From contig JACROF010000012.1 in the NCBI GenBank assembly GCA_016214555.1, positions 138,926 to 202,925 of the forward strand: 64,000 nucleotides of DNA. Reading direction: 5' to 3'. This DNA is from Candidatus Levyibacteriota bacterium (lineage in GTDB: Bacteria; Patescibacteriota; Microgenomatia; Levybacterales; UBA12049). A program made the position numbers. Below, in pieces: positions 27,101-33,100 of this stretch (position 1 is its first letter; every line of letters begins with the position of its first letter).

Positions 27101-30100
27101 GGGCAGAAATGCTTTATCGTATGTATACGAGATGTTTTGAGAAAAAAGGATGGGGCTATGAGATTCTTGATGAAACTCCCGGGGATGAGGCAGGGATAAA
27201 AAGCATAACCCTTGCTGTTTCTGGATCATATGTTTATGGTTTTCTCAGACACGAAGCAGGAGTGCATAGGTTAGTTCGACAGTCGCCTTTTAATGCTGAT
27301 AAATTGCGTCAGACGTCTTTTTCAATGGTGGAGATTCTTCCTCAAGTCGATCATGCTGAAGGCATAGACATCAATGATGATGATATTGAGTTTGATGCAT
27401 TTAGAGCAGGTGGACATGGTGGTCAGAATGTTAACAAGGTCTCAACAGCTGTCAGGCTCAAGCATAAGCCAACTGGTATTGTAGTGACTGCTTCTGTTGA
27501 AAGGCATCAGAATCAAAATAGAGAATTTGCCATGAAATTACTTCGTGCAAAATTGTGGCAATTACGTGAGGAAGAGAGAAAAAAAGAGGAACAAAGACTT
27601 AAGGGGGGGTATGTTACTCCGGGATGGGGTAATCAAATTAGATCGTATGTTCTTCATCCCTATAAGATGGTTAAAGATTTAAGAACGGGTGTAGAGACAG
27701 GCAATACTGACGCTGTCTTAGATGGTGAACTTGATCAATTCATTGAAGAAGAACTTCGACAATTAAGTTAGCTTCTATGGTCTAGGAGGTTGTCAAAATC
27801 TTTGAAATATGCTTAACTAGAATAGGTTTGCGATCGAGAAGATTTAGATATTTTCGGATGAAACTCGCTTATGGAAGAAAAAAATGAGAAATCCTCATTG
27901 ATGCATGAATTCAAAGAGGAAAATATTCAAAAACCAAATAATATGAAATATATTGGAATATTTTTTGTTGTTGCTTTACTTGGCATTGGAACAGGTTTTG
28001 GACTAACTCAGATGACGAATGCAAATCATCAATCAGGAAATCCAAAAACAACCTCTGCGAAAGGTACCTCATACGGTGTAACTAATACAAAAGAGTTTCC
28101 AGACCAAGCAGAAGGCTTGCTCAAGAAGGGCGGTATCGAGGGTGAAGGAGCATTCCATTTAGAGAGACCTGGAGGTGATACTCAAAACGTATACTTAACA
28201 TCCTCAATCGTCGACCTTTCCCAATTGATTGGGAAAAAGGTAAGAGTCTGGGGTCAAACGCAGTCAGGGCAGCATGCAGGCTGGCTCATGGATGTAGGAA
28301 AGGTCGAAGTTCTTTAAGGCTGATTATCCTTGCTTGTCTGTCTGCTCGACTCAAAAAAAGTCAAAATATGATCCGTTTAGTTGAAGTAACCAAGACATAC
28401 GGTACAGGTGCATCAGCATTATCAGATGTTACTTTGTCTGTTGAAAAAGGAGAATTTGTTTTTTTAGTTGGCCCATCAGGATCAGGAAAAACAACACTTC
28501 TGAGACTACTTATTAAAGATATGGTTCCTACAAAAGGAACCATATTCCTCAATGATATTAACGTAACAGCTCTCCCGTCAGGAAAAACTCCTCAGCTTCG
28601 AAAGCAAATAGGTGTAGTATTTCAGGATCTTAAGATGCTCATGGACAGAACAATTTTTGAGAATATTTTGTTACCACTGGAGATGGCTGGAGTTGATCAT
28701 AATGAGGCTGCAAGAAAGGCAAAAGACATTGCTCGTCAGGTAGGGATTGAGGCACATGTTGAGAAATTCCCTGTGCAACTTTCAGGCGGAGAGCTTCAAA
28801 GAGCAGCTATTGCTAGGGCATTAGTATTTTCCCCTCAGATCCTTCTAGCAGATGAGCCTACAGGAAATTTGGATAACACAACGTCATGGGAAATTGTGAA
28901 GCTTCTTCAAGACATTAATCAGATGGGGACAACAGTCATTATGGCAACACATAATCTTGATGTGGTAAATAGCCTTGATAAAAGAACAATTGAGCTTGAG
29001 AAGGGAAAAATTGTGAAGGACAAGAAAAAACCAACTGATGATAAAAAACACGAGAAGAAATCTGATAAATCAGAAAAAGAAGATGAGAAAGGAGTAGAGA
29101 AATAATGAAAACAGCAAAGACAACGTGGAAACACATGCGCAGATCTCCCTATCAATCGATGGCAGCTGTTTTTATGACACTTTTGACATTTTTTATTATT
29201 TCTTTAGTTGCAACTGTTGTCGTGAGCTTATCTCAGATAATCTCTTATTTTGAGTCTTCACCAAAAGTAACTGCTTTTTTTAAAGAAGGAACGCAGCAAT
29301 CTAGCATCGATGCTCTAGCAGAGTCTCTTAAGTCATCGGGTAAAGTTTCGAGTGTAAAATTTGTCTCCAAAGAAGAAGCATTTAAAAGATACAGTAATTG
29401 GAACAAAGATAATCCTATCCTGCTTGAGCTTGTAAATGCTGATGTTTTGCCTCCGTCGCTTGAGATTTCAACATACAAAATTGAAGATCTTGATGATATT
29501 GCAAAAATTATTAAAGAATCCTCCGATGTGTCTGATGTTGTTTTTCTTAAAGATGTAGTGTCTTCACTTATTTCATGGACTGATGCAGTAAGAAAAATAG
29601 GGCTAGCATTGGTAATCGTTTTCTCTGTTGTTTGTTTTTTTGTGATTACTACAATCATTGGATTTAAGATTTCTCAAAAACGTGAGGAGATAGAGATTAT
29701 GCGCTTGCTTAGTGCTACAAGTTGGTATATTAGGTGGCCATTTCTTCTGGAAGGGATATTCTATGGTCTTTTTGGAGCAATCACCGGATGGATTTTGACA
29801 TTTGGGTTAGTTTTGTATACTAAGCCATTTCTCTTATCATTTATGAAAGATGTGCCCCTTGTAACTCTCACACCAACGTTTTTATTTGCATTGTTGGCTA
29901 TCGAGGTTGGTCTTGCCATTCTTCTCGGAGCTGTGGCTAGCTTCATGGCAGTTCTCCGTTATCTCAAATAGCCTTTTATCATTATGAATAAGATAAAAAC
30001 CTACTTCGTTTTTTTAGTCATTTTTTTTCCTATTTTTATTGCATCAGGTGAAGTTTTTGCTCAAACTCCGACTCCAACTGATGTGACGCCGACCCCTGAT

Positions 30101-33100
30101 GACTCCCAGGCCGTCGGAGGTTTAACAAATAAAATTCATGACCTTGAATCAAAGATATCTGATTTGCAGTCACAGGAGAAGTCGCTCTCGTCGCAGATTT
30201 CTGTTATGGATAATCAAATTAAACTTACTGAGTATAAGATTGATTATACAAAGGGACAAATTAGCCAATTAACTGATGATATCTCAACTGCATCTGAGAA
30301 AATTACAAATTTAGAAGGATCATTAACAACAATTACTAAAACGCTTTTGGAAAGAATATCCGCAGGGTATCAACTTAGCACAATACAGCCATTGCAACTT
30401 CTTCTTTCATCGCAAAGCTTTTCTGATTTTATAACAAGGACAAATTATATTCGTATAGTGCAGGAGCACGATAAAAAACTTATGTATAACACAGTTCAGG
30501 CTAAAAATGATTATTCAAATCAAAAGCAGATTTTTGAGGACAAAAAACAACAGGTTCTTGCTCTTCAGACCCAGCTTGAAAATTATACTAAGCAACTTGA
30601 TCAAGATAAAGAGGTCAAACAGAGACTTCTGAATGAGACACAAGGTAGTGAAGCTAATTATCAGAGGCTGCTAGCACAGGCTCGTGCTCAGCTTGCTGGA
30701 TTTAGTAGATTTGCCGAAAGTCAAGGTGGAGCATCTTTGTTGGGAAATCAAACTTCCTGTGATGATTGGGGATGTTATTATAATCAGAGAGATAGCTCTT
30801 GGGGAAGTCAGGCAATGGGAAGTTACACGCTTGCAAGCGATGGCTGTCTTGTTACATCGGTTGCAATGGTTTATACGCATTATGGCCATAGGTCCGTTAC
30901 TCCAGCTACAATTAATGCTAACGACAGTAATTTTGCTTCCTATGAACGAGGTTGGCTTAATAAAACAGTTACTGCAGATGGTGCAACATTAACACGTCAA
31001 ACAGTCTATTTTACACAAGGTAACTCAGAGAGCGAAAAAATCTCAGGAGTAGATGGTTCAACTTTTCCTGTGATCGTTGGGATTAGTTATGATAGTGGTC
31101 CTATCCCAGACCACTTTATTGTTATAACTGGTGGATCAAACGGAAATTACACCATGAACGACCCTTTTACACCTAACGGGAAAGGTATTTCATTTAGCAG
31201 TAAATATTCTATTAGCAGTATTCGAAATGTTGATCGGATTTCTATATAATCCACACTTGAACTCCACAAGCTCTCTGCTATTCTGTATGTAATGAAGCAA
31301 TTTCCCTTTTGGAATCTGTTTTCATGGATTATATCCTTGTTTTTTGTAGTTTCAATAGCTAACGCGTATGCAAGCGATGGTGATATCATCATTAATGAAT
31401 TTCAGATTGAGCCAGCAGGTAGCTCTCAGTGGGTTGAACTTTACAATAAGGGTGATAGCAGCTTAGACATTAGTGGTTGGACGGTTGGGGATGCTGCCAA
31501 CCATAGTATTATTTTGAGCGGCGTATTAGATCCTCATGAGTGCTTGTCTTTTACAAGTGGTAGTTTTCATTTTAATACTGCTTCAGCAGATGGTGTTAGG
31601 TTAATAAAAGATGATGCTATCATTGATAGTTATGACTATGAAAAGAGCCCAGGTGAAAATGTTTCATTTGGAAGATTGCCAGATGGACAGGATGGATGGA
31701 CAACATTTTCAAATCCAACAAAAAATTCATTAAATAGTGGGGGAGGTATTTGTGCATCCCCAACTCCTACCCCAACAAGTGTTTTGACTCCGACATTTGC
31801 TCCAACCGATATTCCTACACCAACAAAGACTCCAACGCCGACAAAGATTCCAACTCCTACTAAAACCCCTACCCCCACCAAGCTGCCGACATCTACACCT
31901 ACAGTTGCTTTGTCAAAGGAGGTTCTGGCGAGTGTGAAAACGCATTCTTCAGTAGACGAGAGTGAATTCCCAACACCAATTCTTGACTCACATAGAGATA
32001 GTAGTGTTACTCCGTCGCCTACAGTTAAGACTAAAGTTTTGGCTGAGAAAAGCATGAAAGCCTCTTCAGTCAATGTTCTTAGTATAGTGCTATCCATAGG
32101 TGGTCTTATATTGATAATAACTTGTGGTATACTTGGATATCGAAATTTTAGAGAGATGAAAGCAAAAAATGAATAAAAATACTATTCGAACACAGAATAT
32201 ATCTGAAACAAAAAAAATCGGTAAGGACATAGCTAAAAATCTTCATGGTGGAGAGGTTATTGCTCTTCATGGAGAGCTTGGAAGTGGAAAGACAGCCTTC
32301 GTTCAAGGTGTTGCTGAAGCATTTCAAATACAAAATGCGTCTTCTCCCACATTTCTTATCATTCATGAGTATAAAGTTTTGAACAATCTTGACATCAAGC
32401 GCATCTACCACATTGATCTTTACAGAATTGATGCACAAGATAATAGCATTGTCTATCAGCTTAAAGAGATATTAGAGGATAAAAAGGCAGTAGTATTTAT
32501 TGAATGGCCTGAAAAAATCGATCAAGGAATTTTACCACACGCAAAATATATATATTTTAGCTTTATAGACGAAAACACAAGAGAAATTACATTAGAAAAG
32601 ATATGATAGGGAACAGTGTTTTAGATGCAATAAGAATAGCAAGAACAGGTGGAATTATAGTATTTCCGACTGATACTGCTTATGGTATTGGATGTAGGAT
32701 TGATGACGATATTGCACTCCAAAAGCTTTTTGCAATTCGTAAAAGACCTCTCCAAAAACCACCTCCTGTATTAGTCAATAGCCCTGAGATGGTCGAGAAA
32801 TACGTCGGAAAAATCCAAGATGATATAGAAAAAAGATTAATAGATCGTTATTGGCCAGGAGCACTTACTATAGTGATGTCTGTAAATCCAAAAAATGTAT
32901 CCTCCTATATTAGGGGCTATAATGATGGGGTGGGGTTTAGAGCTCCAGATCACCACGTTCCGCTTCAGATAATTAATGGCCTGGGTGTGCCTATTGTAGG
33001 AACATCAGCAAACTTTCATGGAGATCCAACTCCTTACAGTTTTAAGGATCTTGATAAAGAATTACTAAATTTGGTTGATTATGTTTATAAAGGTACCTGC

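What the first reader, a model, noticed from the sequence alone, without database searches (positions are those of the whole stretch)
28368..31249. ftsE-ftsX followed by a coiled-coil secreted Cys-peptidase: a PcsB/EnvC-like divisome hydrolase with a C39-like domain
FtsE and FtsX overlap (TAATG), and the next gene encodes signal peptide, ~250 aa of heptad-rich coiled coil, and a C-terminal domain with the Q...DGC...H...N/D layout of papain-like NlpC/P60 or C39_2 peptidases. This is the architecture by which FtsEX mechanically activates septal PG hydrolases (EnvC with LytM factors in E. coli, PcsB with CHAP in pneumococcus). Here the catalytic module appears to be a C39-like domain rather than CHAP or LytM, which would be a variant not characterised biochemically. 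The D,D-carboxypeptidase (59093) and DPBB protein (17340) indicate a conventional PG sacculus.
Basis: partly seen in the sequence, partly recalled or inferred. Interest (0 to 1): 0.55.

Follow-up and report, generated by a model that had tools for sequence, protein, structure and literature searches.

The report
FtsEX-linked coiled-coil C39-like wall hydrolase
In this Levybacteria (CPR/Patescibacteria) genome the cell-division genes ftsE-ftsX are followed by a secreted protein that joins an EnvC/PcsB-type coiled coil to an apparently active C39-like cysteine peptidase, a probable new catalytic variant of the known FtsEX-controlled cell-wall cutters, with no biochemistry behind it yet.

Summary
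ftsE (28368-29105) and ftsX (29105-29971) overlap by one base (TAATG). Twelve bases later starts a 421-aa secreted protein (29984-31249). Its N-terminal ~245 residues form a helical hairpin homologous to the FtsX-binding coiled coils of EnvC and PcsB: Pfam CC_PcsB is above threshold, and a family profile hits EnvC at E = 6.5e-20 and PcsB at 2.5e-8. Its C-terminal 172 residues match Pfam Peptidase_C39_2 only, with no CHAP or NlpC/P60 hit. The predicted fold (pLDDT 94) is closest to C39 peptidase domains. Gln268-Cys288-His377-Asp393 is invariant across the family down to about 22% overall identity. In 75 of 79 testable related genomes ftsX lies directly upstream, and the link survives in one lineage with an otherwise different neighbourhood. 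The architecture also occurs in Dormibacterota, usually away from ftsEX. Close relatives of the catalytic domain are fused to SLT, PG_binding_1 and SH3_3 modules, which points to peptidoglycan. Most likely this is an FtsEX-activated septal wall hydrolase. It is a new variant of a known kind: pipelines already annotate each half, but I found no published description. FtsX binding, autoinhibition, the substrate and the bond cleaved are all inferred.

The parts
28368..29105 (+). ftsE, the ABC-type ATPase of the FtsEX complex (245 aa). It has a 30-aa Lys/Glu/Asp-rich C-terminal tail beyond the family model.
   Evidence: TIGR02673 FtsE 265.6 bits against a cut-off of 264.85, and Pfam ABC_tran 119 bits.
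29105..29971 (+). ftsX, the membrane subunit of FtsEX (288 aa). Its start overlaps the ftsE stop by 1 nt (TAATG).
   Evidence: Pfam FtsX_ECD 60.8 bits and FtsX 43.4 bits, both above cut-off. The NCBIfam FtsX_Gpos and FtsX_Gneg models score 180 and 173 bits, below their equivalog cut-offs. Junction sequence.
29264..29539 (+). FtsX extracellular domain (aa 54-145), the expected docking site for the coiled coil.
   Evidence: The FtsX_ECD profile is matched over positions 2-96 of 96. The docking role is inferred from the EnvC-FtsX and RipC-FtsEX structures (PMC7668044, PMC11627006).
29984..31249 (+). Gene for the secreted coiled-coil + C39_2 cysteine peptidase (421 aa). It starts 12 nt after the ftsX stop.
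   Evidence: It is 100% identical to an NCBI protein named 'C39 family peptidase [Candidatus Levybacteria bacterium]'.
29984..30061 (+). Signal peptide (aa 1-26, predicted cleavage VFA|Q).
   Evidence: Read from the sequence. AF2 models aa 2-19 as a helix, followed by a low-confidence linker. No dedicated predictor was run.
30062..30103 (+). Pro/Thr-rich flexible linker (aa 27-40).
   Evidence: pLDDT is below 50 for aa 23-40. Sequence: QTPTPTDVTPTPDD.
30104..30721 (+). EnvC/PcsB-type coiled-coil region (aa 41-246). It comprises helices 41-63, 68-132 (long helix I), 136-142 (short linker helix), 146-219 (long helix II) and 223-246 (in the position of the EnvC 'restraining arm').
   Evidence: AF2 secondary structure. 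Family profile against PDB sequences: EnvC 6.5e-20, 4e-16 and 9e-16; PcsB 2.5e-8; RipA 1.9e-5; RipC 3e-3. Gapless ~200-residue alignment to E. coli EnvC. Foldseek top hits are EnvC in FtsEX, PcsB, and RipC in FtsEX.
30308..30508 (+). Hairpin-tip region (aa 109-175), the predicted FtsX-binding site. Residues ~118-131 and ~146-164 align with EnvC's two FtsX-binding segments.
   Evidence: Pfam CC_PcsB 33.7 bits against a cut-off of 27, over aa 109-175. Mapping uses the gapless EnvC alignment and the EnvC sites 114-127 and 142-160 given in PMC7668044. Y129, Y155 and D163 are invariant in the clade.
30731..31246 (+). C-terminal papain-fold cysteine peptidase domain of the Peptidase_C39_2 family (aa 250-421).
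   Evidence: PF13529 34.1 bits against a cut-off of 24, with no CHAP or NlpC/P60 hit. AF2 pLDDT 94.1, pTM 0.90. Foldseek best hits are PCAT1, ComA and LahT C39 domains and 3ERV.
30785..30787 (+). Gln268 codon (CAG), the predicted oxyanion-hole residue.
   Evidence: Invariant. It is Gln in 128 of 129 non-gap sequences among wider representatives.
30845..30847 (+). Cys288 codon (TGT), the predicted catalytic nucleophile within D-G-C.
   Evidence: Invariant in all alignments.
31112..31114 (+). His377 codon (CAC), the predicted general base.
   Evidence: 137 of 137 representatives. Invariant in A1 and A3.
31160..31162 (+). Asp393 codon (GAC), the predicted third member of the triad; it is followed by an invariant Pro394.
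   Evidence: 137 of 137 representatives. Invariant in A1 and A3.
27871..28317 (+). Conserved small membrane protein directly upstream of ftsE (148 aa, one TM helix plus a conserved ~70-aa C-terminal domain). It may be an accessory factor; whether it belongs to the system is uncertain.
   Evidence: It is present upstream of ftsE in most of the 80 related loci and in the distant L090 (E = 3.5e-46). It is absent from L087. It matches no family in Pfam, NCBIfam or PHROGs.

Best explanation
The three genes most likely encode a divisome module for controlled cell-wall cleavage, of the type monoderm bacteria use (FtsEX-PcsB, FtsEX-CwlO, FtsEX-RipC). FtsE (ATPase) and FtsX (membrane subunit with an extracellular domain) would form a type VII ABC 'mechanotransmitter'. 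The third protein is exported by its signal peptide. Its long antiparallel coiled-coil hairpin would insert its tip (about aa 118-164) between the two FtsX extracellular domains. In the resting state the C-terminal cysteine peptidase domain would be held inactive against the coiled coil and the helix at aa 223-246. ATP binding and hydrolysis by FtsE would then be transmitted through FtsX and the coiled coil, releasing the domain. The freed domain, using Cys288/His377/Asp393 with Gln268 as the oxyanion residue, would cut peptide or amide bonds of septal peptidoglycan so that daughter cells can separate. The catalytic module is a Peptidase_C39_2 domain instead of the LytM, CHAP or NlpC/P60 modules of the characterised partners. 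Shown here: gene order and its conservation, domain identities, homology of the coiled coil to EnvC/PcsB, the fold of the catalytic domain, and invariance of the catalytic residues. Inferred: physical binding to FtsX, autoinhibition and ATP-driven release, peptidoglycan as substrate, and the bond cleaved.
For: - Operon structure: a 1-nt ftsE/ftsX overlap and a 12-nt ftsX-ORF3 gap.
- Synteny: 75 of 79 testable species-level genomes keep ftsX directly upstream. The adjacency is retained in a distant clade with a different neighbourhood, secA...ftsE-ftsX-CC_C39_2-ctpB-rplI (L087/L088), and in L090.
- Coiled coil: Pfam CC_PcsB is above threshold and centred on the hairpin tip. The family profile hits EnvC at 6.5e-20, 4e-16 and 9e-16 and PcsB at 2.5e-8, whereas generic coiled coils score about 1e-5 to 1e-2. 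The alignment to EnvC is gapless over ~200 residues and puts the linker in the same place. The AF2 topology (long helix, 7-residue helix, long helix, extra helix) matches the published EnvC description. The top Foldseek hits are EnvC, PcsB and RipC chains from FtsEX complexes.
- Catalytic domain: C39_2 is above threshold and is the only family above threshold. The model has pLDDT 94 and its best fold matches are C39 peptidase domains. Q-C-H-D is invariant across the family, which argues for an active enzyme rather than an EnvC-like activator.
- Cell-wall substrate: the closest non-coiled-coil relatives of the domain are fused to SLT transglycosylase, PG_binding_1 and SH3_3 modules. The best viral fold match is annotated as a phi29-type wall hydrolase (E = 2e-5). 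C39_2 is listed among lysin domains in endolysin surveys, and a mycobacteriophage LysA domain (N5) matches the B. anthracis C39-like peptidase by HHpred.
- Wall context: a Peptidase_S11 D,D-carboxypeptidase is encoded in the same window.
Against: - No experiment or complex prediction shows that this protein binds FtsX. AlphaFold-multimer was not available.
- No member of Peptidase_C39_2 with demonstrated peptidoglycan-cleaving activity turned up in the papers I could search. True C39 peptidases cleave leader peptides, and one C39-like archaeal protein was reported to have glycosidase activity and none on wall peptides (PMC13642728).
- The catalytic domain has no sequence match in phage genomes or PHROGs.
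- Adjacency to ftsEX is lost in some lineages: 3 of 79 Levybacteria-type loci, L089, L091, and Dormibacterota L092/L093.
- Coiled-coil hydrolases such as RipA, whose coiled coil also matches the profile, are reported to be controlled independently of FtsEX (title and abstract of PMC9897464, seen).
Confidence: 0.75

Rival explanations
1. FtsEX-tethered protein-processing protease. The C39_2 domain cleaves a secreted or surface protein rather than peptidoglycan, as true C39 domains cleave double-glycine leader peptides. Candidate substrates would be a pilin, an S-layer protein or the neighbouring LTD surface protein. The coiled coil would only position it at the membrane or divisome.
For: The nearest solved folds are leader-peptide-processing C39 domains of PCAT1, ComA and LahT. 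The 2023 classification describes C39_2 as single-domain peptidases often found near transporters. A surface-anchored LTD protein is encoded immediately downstream.
Against: The LTD gene was detected downstream in only a minority of the 80 related loci, so there is no constant candidate substrate gene. The N-terminal half is specifically homologous to the coiled coils of wall-hydrolase regulators. Close relatives of the catalytic domain are fused to SLT, PG_binding_1 and SH3_3 wall modules. The PF03412 (true C39) score is below threshold, 13.4 against 22 bits.
Confidence: 0.1
2. FtsEX-independent wall hydrolase. The protein is a coiled-coil autolysin whose activity is controlled by something other than FtsEX, as reported for RipA in Corynebacteriales. 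On this view the adjacency to ftsEX reflects co-expression with division genes, not physical coupling.
For: The profile also matches the RipA coiled coil (E = 1.9e-5). Several lineages encode the protein away from ftsEX. In Dormibacterota locus L084 the gene directly after ftsX is a coiled-coil + M23 (EnvC-like) protein, while the C39_2 protein sits two genes upstream of ftsE.
Against: The matches to EnvC and PcsB are 3 to 15 orders of magnitude stronger than those to RipA. The gene is immediately downstream of ftsX in 75 of 79 genomes, with a median spacing of about 28 nt. The adjacency is retained where the surrounding genes differ. pcsB and cwlO are also unlinked to ftsEX in their genomes yet depend on it (established knowledge; PMC7668044).
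Confidence: 0.1
3. Non-catalytic activator. Like EnvC, the protein would not cut peptidoglycan itself and would use its C-terminal domain to activate a separate amidase.
For: The strongest sequence relatives of the N-terminal half are EnvC proteins.
Against: EnvC's LytM domain has lost its catalytic residues (PMC11627006). Here the Gln-Cys-His-Asp set is invariant across the whole family, as expected for an active enzyme. Patescibacteria are described as having a single membrane plus murein (PMC11809585), the setting in which direct hydrolases are used.
Confidence: 0.03
4. C39-like glycosidase. The domain would cleave a glycosidic bond, in glycan strands or a wall polysaccharide, rather than a peptide or amide bond.
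For: One 2026 report describes a C39-like archaeal protein with weak beta-galactosidase-type activity and none on peptides (PMC13642728).
Against: That protein has Asn in place of the third catalytic residue. Here the canonical Asp393 is invariant. The reported activity is very low and was measured on artificial substrates. Papain-fold wall enzymes (CHAP, NlpC/P60) are peptidases or amidases (PMC10318531).
Confidence: 0.02

Closest known systems
PcsB of Streptococcus pneumoniae (FtsEX-PcsB; PDB 4CGK)
   Same: Both are secreted proteins with a signal peptide, an N-terminal coiled coil of long and short helices, and a C-terminal papain-fold Cys/His hydrolase. Pfam CC_PcsB matches above threshold, the profile hits PcsB at E = 2.5e-8, and 4CGK is among the top Foldseek hits. 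Both are expected to work as direct hydrolases in single-membrane envelopes.
   Different: The catalytic module here is Peptidase_C39_2, not CHAP. There is no PF05257 hit. The NCBIfam PcsB equivalog scores 26.8 bits against a cut-off of 450. The predicted triad is Cys-His-Asp with a Gln oxyanion residue, against the C292/H343/E360 proposed for PcsB. This gene is adjacent to ftsEX, whereas pcsB is not (my knowledge).
EnvC of E. coli, V. cholerae and P. aeruginosa (FtsEX-EnvC-AmiA/B; PDB 6TPI, 8HD0, 8TZL, 8I6O)
   Same: EnvC gives the strongest sequence similarity for the coiled-coil half: E = 6.5e-20, with a gapless ~200-residue alignment. The topology is the same: long helix I, a short linker helix, long helix II, then a further helix before the C-terminal domain. 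8TZL chain E is the top Foldseek hit.
   Different: EnvC ends in a catalytically dead LytM (M23) domain and activates separate amidases. Here the C-terminal domain is a cysteine peptidase with an invariant catalytic set. The NCBIfam EnvC equivalog scores 29.3 bits against a cut-off of 270.
CwlO (B. subtilis) and RipC (Mycobacterium/Corynebacterium; PDB 8IDC)
   Same: All are FtsEX-dependent direct hydrolases built as a coiled coil, a linker and a papain-superfamily Cys peptidase. RipC in the FtsEX complex is among the fold hits and profile hits. JGI labels relatives of this protein 'CwlO-like'.
   Different: Their catalytic domain is NlpC/P60, placed in cluster II of papain-like enzymes with a Cys-His-His triad. 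Here it is C39_2, described in that paper as closely related to the C39 family of cluster I, with Cys-His-Asp. There is no PF00877 hit. There is also no long Pro-rich linker between the coiled coil and the catalytic domain like the one in RipC.
Peptidase_C39_2 (PF13529), e.g. B. anthracis 'C39-like peptidase' 3ERV
   Same: The domain scores above the Pfam gathering threshold. 80 of 86 family members match it. 3ERV and 'Peptidase C39-like domain' chains appear in the fold and profile searches.
   Different: The 2023 classification describes the family as single-domain peptidases near transporters, with no FtsEX or coiled-coil connection. Here the domain is fused to an EnvC/PcsB-type coiled coil and linked to ftsEX.
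C39 bacteriocin-processing peptidase domains (PF03412; ComA, PCAT1, LahT)
   Same: These are the best solved-structure fold matches for the catalytic domain: probability 1.00, TM 0.5-0.63 normalised to the target. They share the Gln/Cys/His/Asp arrangement.
   Different: They are cytoplasmic N-terminal domains of ABC exporters that cleave double-glycine leader peptides. Here the domain is extracytoplasmic and C-terminal, is not fused to a transporter, and scores below the PF03412 threshold at 13.4 against 22 bits.

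Membership tests
FtsEX-coupled coiled-coil wall hydrolases/activators (EnvC, PcsB, CwlO, RipC class) | Exported protein with an N-terminal signal sequence | tested here: met
   MNKIK + hydrophobic core + VFA|Q is read from the sequence. AF2 models aa 2-19 as a helix followed by a disordered linker. No dedicated signal-peptide predictor was available.
FtsEX-coupled coiled-coil wall hydrolases/activators (EnvC, PcsB, CwlO, RipC class) | N-terminal antiparallel coiled-coil hairpin homologous to that of EnvC/PcsB | tested here: met
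   CC_PcsB 33.7 bits against a cut-off of 27. Profile hits: EnvC 6.5e-20, PcsB 2.5e-8. Gapless alignment to EnvC. AF2 hairpin topology. Foldseek hits to EnvC, PcsB and RipC.
FtsEX-coupled coiled-coil wall hydrolases/activators (EnvC, PcsB, CwlO, RipC class) | C-terminal module of a wall-hydrolase type (LytM, CHAP or NlpC/P60 in the characterised members) | tested here: not met
   The module is Peptidase_C39_2, with no LytM, CHAP or NlpC/P60 hit. It is a papain-fold Cys peptidase, so the function may be analogous, but none of the three known module types is present. This is the respect in which the protein is a variant.
FtsEX-coupled coiled-coil wall hydrolases/activators (EnvC, PcsB, CwlO, RipC class) | Genetic association with ftsEX | tested here: met
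   75 of 79 testable loci have ftsX directly upstream. The adjacency is retained in a different neighbourhood.
FtsEX-coupled coiled-coil wall hydrolases/activators (EnvC, PcsB, CwlO, RipC class) | Physical binding of the coiled coil to the FtsX extracellular domain | not testable with these tools
   No multimer prediction or experiment was available. Only the mapping of EnvC's binding segments onto aa ~118-131 and ~146-164 could be done.
FtsEX-coupled coiled-coil wall hydrolases/activators (EnvC, PcsB, CwlO, RipC class) | Autoinhibition relieved by the FtsE ATPase cycle | not testable with these tools
A helix (aa 223-246) lies where EnvC has its restraining arm.
Peptidase_C39_2 (Pfam PF13529) | Profile score above the gathering threshold | tested here: met
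   30.0 bits for the full-length protein and 34.1 bits for the domain alone, against a cut-off of 24. 80 of 86 relatives match.
Peptidase_C39_2 (Pfam PF13529) | Papain-type catalytic residues (Gln, Cys, His, Asp/Asn) conserved | tested here: met
   Q268, C288, H377 and D393 are invariant.
Peptidase_C39_2 (Pfam PF13529) | C39-like papain fold | tested here: met
C39 bacteriocin-processing peptidases (Pfam PF03412 / MEROPS C39) | Profile score above threshold, and an N-terminal fusion to an ABC exporter | tested here: not met
   13.4 bits against a cut-off of 22. The domain is C-terminal in a secreted protein with no transporter fusion.
CHAP (PF05257) and NlpC/P60 (PF00877) | Profile match | tested here: not met
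   No hit at E <= 10 for the isolated domain. Neither is among the 25 most frequent families across 86 relatives. No CHAP or NlpC/P60 chain is among the 50 listed PDB fold hits.
PcsB (NCBIfam NF046104) and EnvC (NF008644) equivalogs | Whole-protein score above the curated cut-off | tested here: not met
   PcsB scores 26.8 against 450 bits and EnvC 29.3 against 270 bits. In both cases only the coiled-coil part matches.
FtsE / FtsX | Family models above threshold | tested here: met
   FtsE: TIGR02673 scores 265.6 against 264.85 bits. FtsX: Pfam FtsX_ECD and FtsX are above threshold. The lineage-specific NCBIfam FtsX models (Gpos 180 against 225, Gneg 173 against 255) are below their cut-offs, as expected for a divergent phylum.

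The most novel reading that the evidence does not exclude
The coiled-coil + C39_2 protein would be the principal FtsEX-driven septal hydrolase of a large part of the Patescibacteria, and would represent a fourth, biochemically distinct catalytic solution alongside LytM-plus-amidase, CHAP and NlpC/P60. It could have a different bond specificity in peptidoglycan. Its shared presence in Patescibacteria and Dormibacterota/Chloroflexota-type genomes could be an inherited character, which would bear on the proposed relationship of CPR to that part of the Terrabacteria. A bolder version is that episymbiotic CPR cells also use this FtsEX-gated hydrolase on the wall of their host.
Probability: 0.2. Interest if true: 0.65.

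Novelty: new variant of a known kind. Interest (0 to 1): 0.45.

Why it matters
FtsEX-controlled wall hydrolysis is a central, well-studied step of bacterial division, and three catalytic designs have been characterised. This finding adds a computationally well-supported fourth design in the CPR/Patescibacteria, a very large group that has barely been cultivated and whose division is almost unstudied. It also assigns a concrete, testable role to a subfamily of the poorly understood Peptidase_C39_2 family. It yields a short list of residues (Cys288, His377, Asp393, hairpin tip 118-164) for experiments in heterologous systems. The shared architecture in Dormibacterota gives a small evolutionary marker. 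It does not change the mechanistic paradigm, because it is a module swap within a known system.

Tried and rejected
- A single-sequence phmmer search of the protein against PDB sequences gave only generic coiled-coil noise. The family profile was needed to reveal EnvC and PcsB.
- tblastn of the catalytic domain against 50,697 phage genomes found nothing, and PHROGs found nothing. The idea that the domain is a close relative of phage lysin domains is therefore not supported at the sequence level; only a fold-level match to a phage wall-hydrolase annotation exists.
- I tested whether the small membrane protein upstream of ftsE is a universal fourth component. It is conserved in Levybacteria-type loci and in L090, but the gene in that position in L087 is unrelated. 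It is reported only as a possible accessory.
- I considered a programmed frameshift in the upstream prfB. By eye the ORF appears to cover the RF2 N-terminus in one frame, so I did not pursue it.
- The listing of cluster members gave no organism names for the divergent clades. Lineage came instead from the names.
- Several divergent representatives sit on contigs too short to judge context.
- A promoter/terminator scan around the operon was uninformative, with counts at or below the shuffled expectation.
- I did not attempt coevolution analysis between the FtsX ECD and the hairpin tip, because ~75 moderately similar pairs are too few.

Full report
**Observation.** The + strand of the window carries three tightly packed genes at the coordinates given. 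ftsE spans 28368-29105 and scores 265.6 bits on NCBIfam TIGR02673 against a cut-off of 264.85. ftsX spans 29105-29971 and matches Pfam FtsX_ECD (60.8 bits) and FtsX (43.4 bits), both above threshold. The ftsE stop and the ftsX start share one base, TAATG. The third gene, 29984-31249, starts 12 nt after the ftsX stop.

Its 421-aa product has four parts:
- a Sec-type signal peptide (aa 1-26, read from the sequence);
- a Pro/Thr-rich linker (aa 27-40, pLDDT below 50);
- about 205 residues of almost Pro-free helix;
- a compact C-terminal domain carrying Q268, D286-G287-C288, H377 and D393.

The protein is 100% identical to an NCBI entry, 'C39 family peptidase [Candidatus Levybacteria bacterium]'. 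The window is therefore from a Patescibacteria (CPR) genome of about 37% GC.

**Coiled-coil half.** Pfam CC_PcsB matches aa 109-175 at 33.7 bits against a cut-off of 27. A single-sequence search of solved structures gave only generic coiled-coil noise. A profile built from 86 diverse family members did better:
- E. coli EnvC at E = 6.5e-20 and, for a second construct, 4e-16;
- V. cholerae EnvC at 9e-16;
- P. aeruginosa EnvC at 2.4e-8 and pneumococcal PcsB at 2.5e-8;
- a corynebacterial coiled-coil hydrolase at 9e-6, RipA at 1.9e-5 and RipC at 3e-3.

Generic coiled coils (Smc, GCN4 fusions, tropomyosin) score only about 1e-5 to 1e-2 in the same search.

The alignment to E. coli EnvC is gapless over about 200 residues. 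The AlphaFold2 model (63-sequence alignment, mean pLDDT 82.4, pTM 0.67) shows helices at 41-63, 68-132, 136-142, 146-219 and 223-246. That is the topology published for EnvC: long helix I, a linker containing a six-residue helix, long helix II, then the restraining arm (PMC7668044). Using the gapless alignment, EnvC's two FtsX-binding segments (114-127 and 142-160) map to about aa 118-131 and 146-164 here. These segments flank the predicted linker and lie inside the CC_PcsB hit. A Foldseek search of the full model against the PDB returned EnvC in the V. cholerae FtsEX complex as top hit, with PcsB, RipC in the M. tuberculosis FtsEX complex, the RipA N-terminal domain and EnvC bound to the FtsX domain all in the top 14. 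The E-values are weak, 7e-3 to 4e-2.

**Catalytic half.** The isolated domain (aa 245-421) matches Pfam Peptidase_C39_2 at 34.1 bits against a cut-off of 24. It also gives a sub-threshold hit to Peptidase_C39 (13.4 against 22 bits). Nothing else appears at E <= 10, and in particular neither CHAP nor NlpC/P60.

Conservation of the catalytic residues:
- Q268, C288, H377 and D393 are invariant in the 120 closest homologues.
- In 137 representatives of 50%-identity clusters, Cys is present in 133 of 133 non-gap sequences, His in 137 of 137, Asp in 137 of 137 and Gln in 128 of 129.
- In an 86-sequence full-length alignment with 26% mean column identity, the only invariant columns are Q268, G287, C288, P307, H377, D393 and P394.

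This is the pattern of an active papain-type Cys-His-Asp enzyme with a Gln oxyanion residue. It is not that of a degenerate activator like the LytM domain of EnvC (PMC11627006).

**Synteny and distribution.** A scan of one genome per species found relatives in 314 genomes, and the best 80 loci were fetched. ftsX lies directly upstream on the same strand in 75 of 79 testable loci, and ftsE precedes it in 72 of them. The median spacing between ftsX and the hydrolase gene is about 28 nt. Three loci lack ftsEX nearby and one has an inserted gene. The whole block prfB / small membrane protein / ftsE / ftsX / hydrolase / (LTD protein) / tsaE / tsaC-like / tsaB-like / CAP is conserved.

The link also survives where the neighbourhood differs. 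In a clade only 24% identical overall (P0240, 54% GC) the order is secA, VIT1, an unrelated gene, ftsE, ftsX, hydrolase, ctpB-like S41 peptidase, rplI. Another distant member keeps the prfB...ftsEX...LTD arrangement.

The link is not universal, since two other Patescibacteria-type members are unlinked to ftsEX. The same architecture occurs in 69-72% GC contigs whose relatives are named Candidatus Dormibacteraeota or 'Chloroflexi bacterium'. There the gene is usually away from ftsEX. One locus reads hydrolase, acetyltransferase-like gene, ftsE, ftsX, coiled coil + Peptidase_M23 (EnvC-like). Unlinked partners are normal for this system: as far as I know, pcsB and cwlO are not next to ftsEX either.

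**Substrate.** Nothing here demonstrates peptidoglycan cleavage. Four lines of indirect evidence point to it:
- the coiled coil is homologous to those of wall-hydrolase regulators, and the gene is linked to ftsEX;
- among the nearest non-coiled-coil relatives of the catalytic domain, one is fused to an SLT lytic transglycosylase domain, one to PG_binding_1 and one to SH3_3;
- the best viral fold match is a phage protein annotated as a phi29-type wall hydrolase (E = 2e-5, TMq 0.54), with weaker matches to phage 'Peptidase' and 'Endolysin' entries;
- endolysin surveys list PF13529 among lysin-associated domains, and the N5 domain of mycobacteriophage LysA proteins matches the B. anthracis C39-like peptidase by HHpred.

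Against this, the domain has no sequence-level match in phage genomes or PHROGs. The 2023 classification of papain-like enzymes treats C39_2 as single-domain peptidases associated with transporters. A 2026 paper reports glycosidase-type activity for one archaeal C39-like protein, although that protein has Asn instead of the Asp that is invariant here. A Peptidase_S11 D,D-carboxypeptidase in the window (163 bits) fits a normal murein wall.

**Mechanism proposed.** By analogy with the solved FtsEX-EnvC and FtsEX-RipC complexes (PMC11627006, PMC7668044), I propose the following. The exported protein docks its hairpin tip between the two FtsX extracellular domains. Its peptidase domain is held inactive against the coiled coil and helix 223-246. 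The FtsE ATPase cycle releases it to cut septal peptidoglycan. The direct-hydrolase design fits the single-membrane, murein-walled envelope inferred for Patescibacteria (PMC11809585). Docking, autoinhibition, ATP dependence and bond specificity are all inferred. I put about 0.75 on the overall reading. The rivals are a protein-processing protease (0.10), an FtsEX-independent autolysin like RipA (0.10), a non-catalytic activator (0.03) and a glycosidase (0.02).

**Comparison with known systems and novelty.** It works like PcsB, CwlO and RipC, but it is not a member of any of those families. The NCBIfam PcsB and EnvC equivalogs score far below their cut-offs, and only on the coiled coil. CHAP, NlpC/P60 and LytM are absent. 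It is a member of Pfam Peptidase_C39_2, but not of the true C39 bacteriocin-processing peptidases.

The 2024 FtsEX review describes only LytM (EnvC), CHAP (PcsB) and NlpC/P60 (RipC, CwlO) partners. Five full-text searches combining FtsEX/FtsX with C39, Patescibacteria, Candidate Phyla Radiation or Dormibacterota found no description of this combination. Annotation pipelines already label the two halves separately ('C39 family peptidase', 'peptidoglycan hydrolase CwlO-like protein', 'PcsB-like coiled-coil domain-containing protein'). I therefore rate it a new variant of a known kind. It is moderately interesting (0.45) as a module swap within an established mechanism. It extends that mechanism to a large uncultivated radiation, gives part of the C39_2 family a testable function, and offers a possible shared character between Patescibacteria and Dormibacterota.

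Noticed in passing
window 27871-28317 (+): A 148-aa protein with one N-terminal TM helix and a very conserved ~70-aa C-terminal domain (FHLERPGG..QNVYLTSS.VDLSQ.IGKKVRVWG....AGWLMDVG.VE.L). It matches no Pfam, NCBIfam or PHROG family. It sits directly upstream of ftsE in most Levybacteria-type loci and in the distant L090, but not in L087. It could be an FtsEX accessory factor, in the way SweC/SweD or SteA/SteB are elsewhere.
   Followed up: partly
window 31292-32176 (+): A surface protein directly downstream of the hydrolase gene: signal peptide, Lamin Tail Domain (PF00932, 54 bits), a long Pro/Thr-rich linker and a C-terminal TM anchor. BLAST detected it downstream in only a minority of related loci. 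The linker region gives weak matches to two PHROGs of unknown function.
   Followed up: partly
window 29010-29102 (ftsE aa 215-245): FtsE carries a ~30-aa Lys/Glu/Asp-rich C-terminal tail (KDKKKPTDDKKHEKKSDKSEKEDEKGVEK) beyond the end of the FtsE family model. Its function is unknown.
   Followed up: no
window 30758-30775 (hydrolase aa 259-264): A CDDWGC motif lies just before the oxyanion Gln. Both Cys are invariant in the Levybacteria clade but present in only 43 of 137 wider family representatives. It may be a clade-specific disulfide near the active site.
   Followed up: partly
L084 (Dormibacterota-type contig, 72% GC), 168-9305: One locus holds, in a row, a coiled-coil + C39_2 gene, an acetyltransferase-like gene, ftsE, ftsX and a coiled-coil + Peptidase_M23 (EnvC-like) gene, plus a CHAP-domain gene ~3 kb upstream. 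Two different coiled-coil partners may share one FtsEX there.
   Followed up: partly
L091 4001-5582: In one Patescibacteria-type lineage the coiled-coil + C39_2 gene is not near ftsEX and is immediately followed by a Phage_holin_4_2 family gene. That pairing recalls a holin-lysin cassette.
   Followed up: no
L001, L003, L004 and many other loci: Dozens of species-representative MAG records with Levybacteria-type gene order and low GC are titled 'uncultured Gammaproteobacteria bacterium'. Others are titled Methylomirabilota, Eisenbacteria or Acidiferrales. These record titles look like placeholders or mislabels and should not be used for taxonomy.
   Followed up: no
The neighbouring ORF 60067-61218 (-), next to the D,D-carboxypeptidase gene, also has no Pfam match.
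   Followed up: partly
P0321-P0323: At the tail of the homologue list for the divergent Patescibacteria-type clade (seeded with P0240) are ~375-390-aa proteins carrying CHAP (PF05257). They match over about 30-72% of the query, presumably through the coiled coil; their organisms are not named. Coiled-coil + CHAP (PcsB-like) versions may therefore exist in the same broad group, consistent with module swapping on a common coiled-coil scaffold.
   Followed up: no
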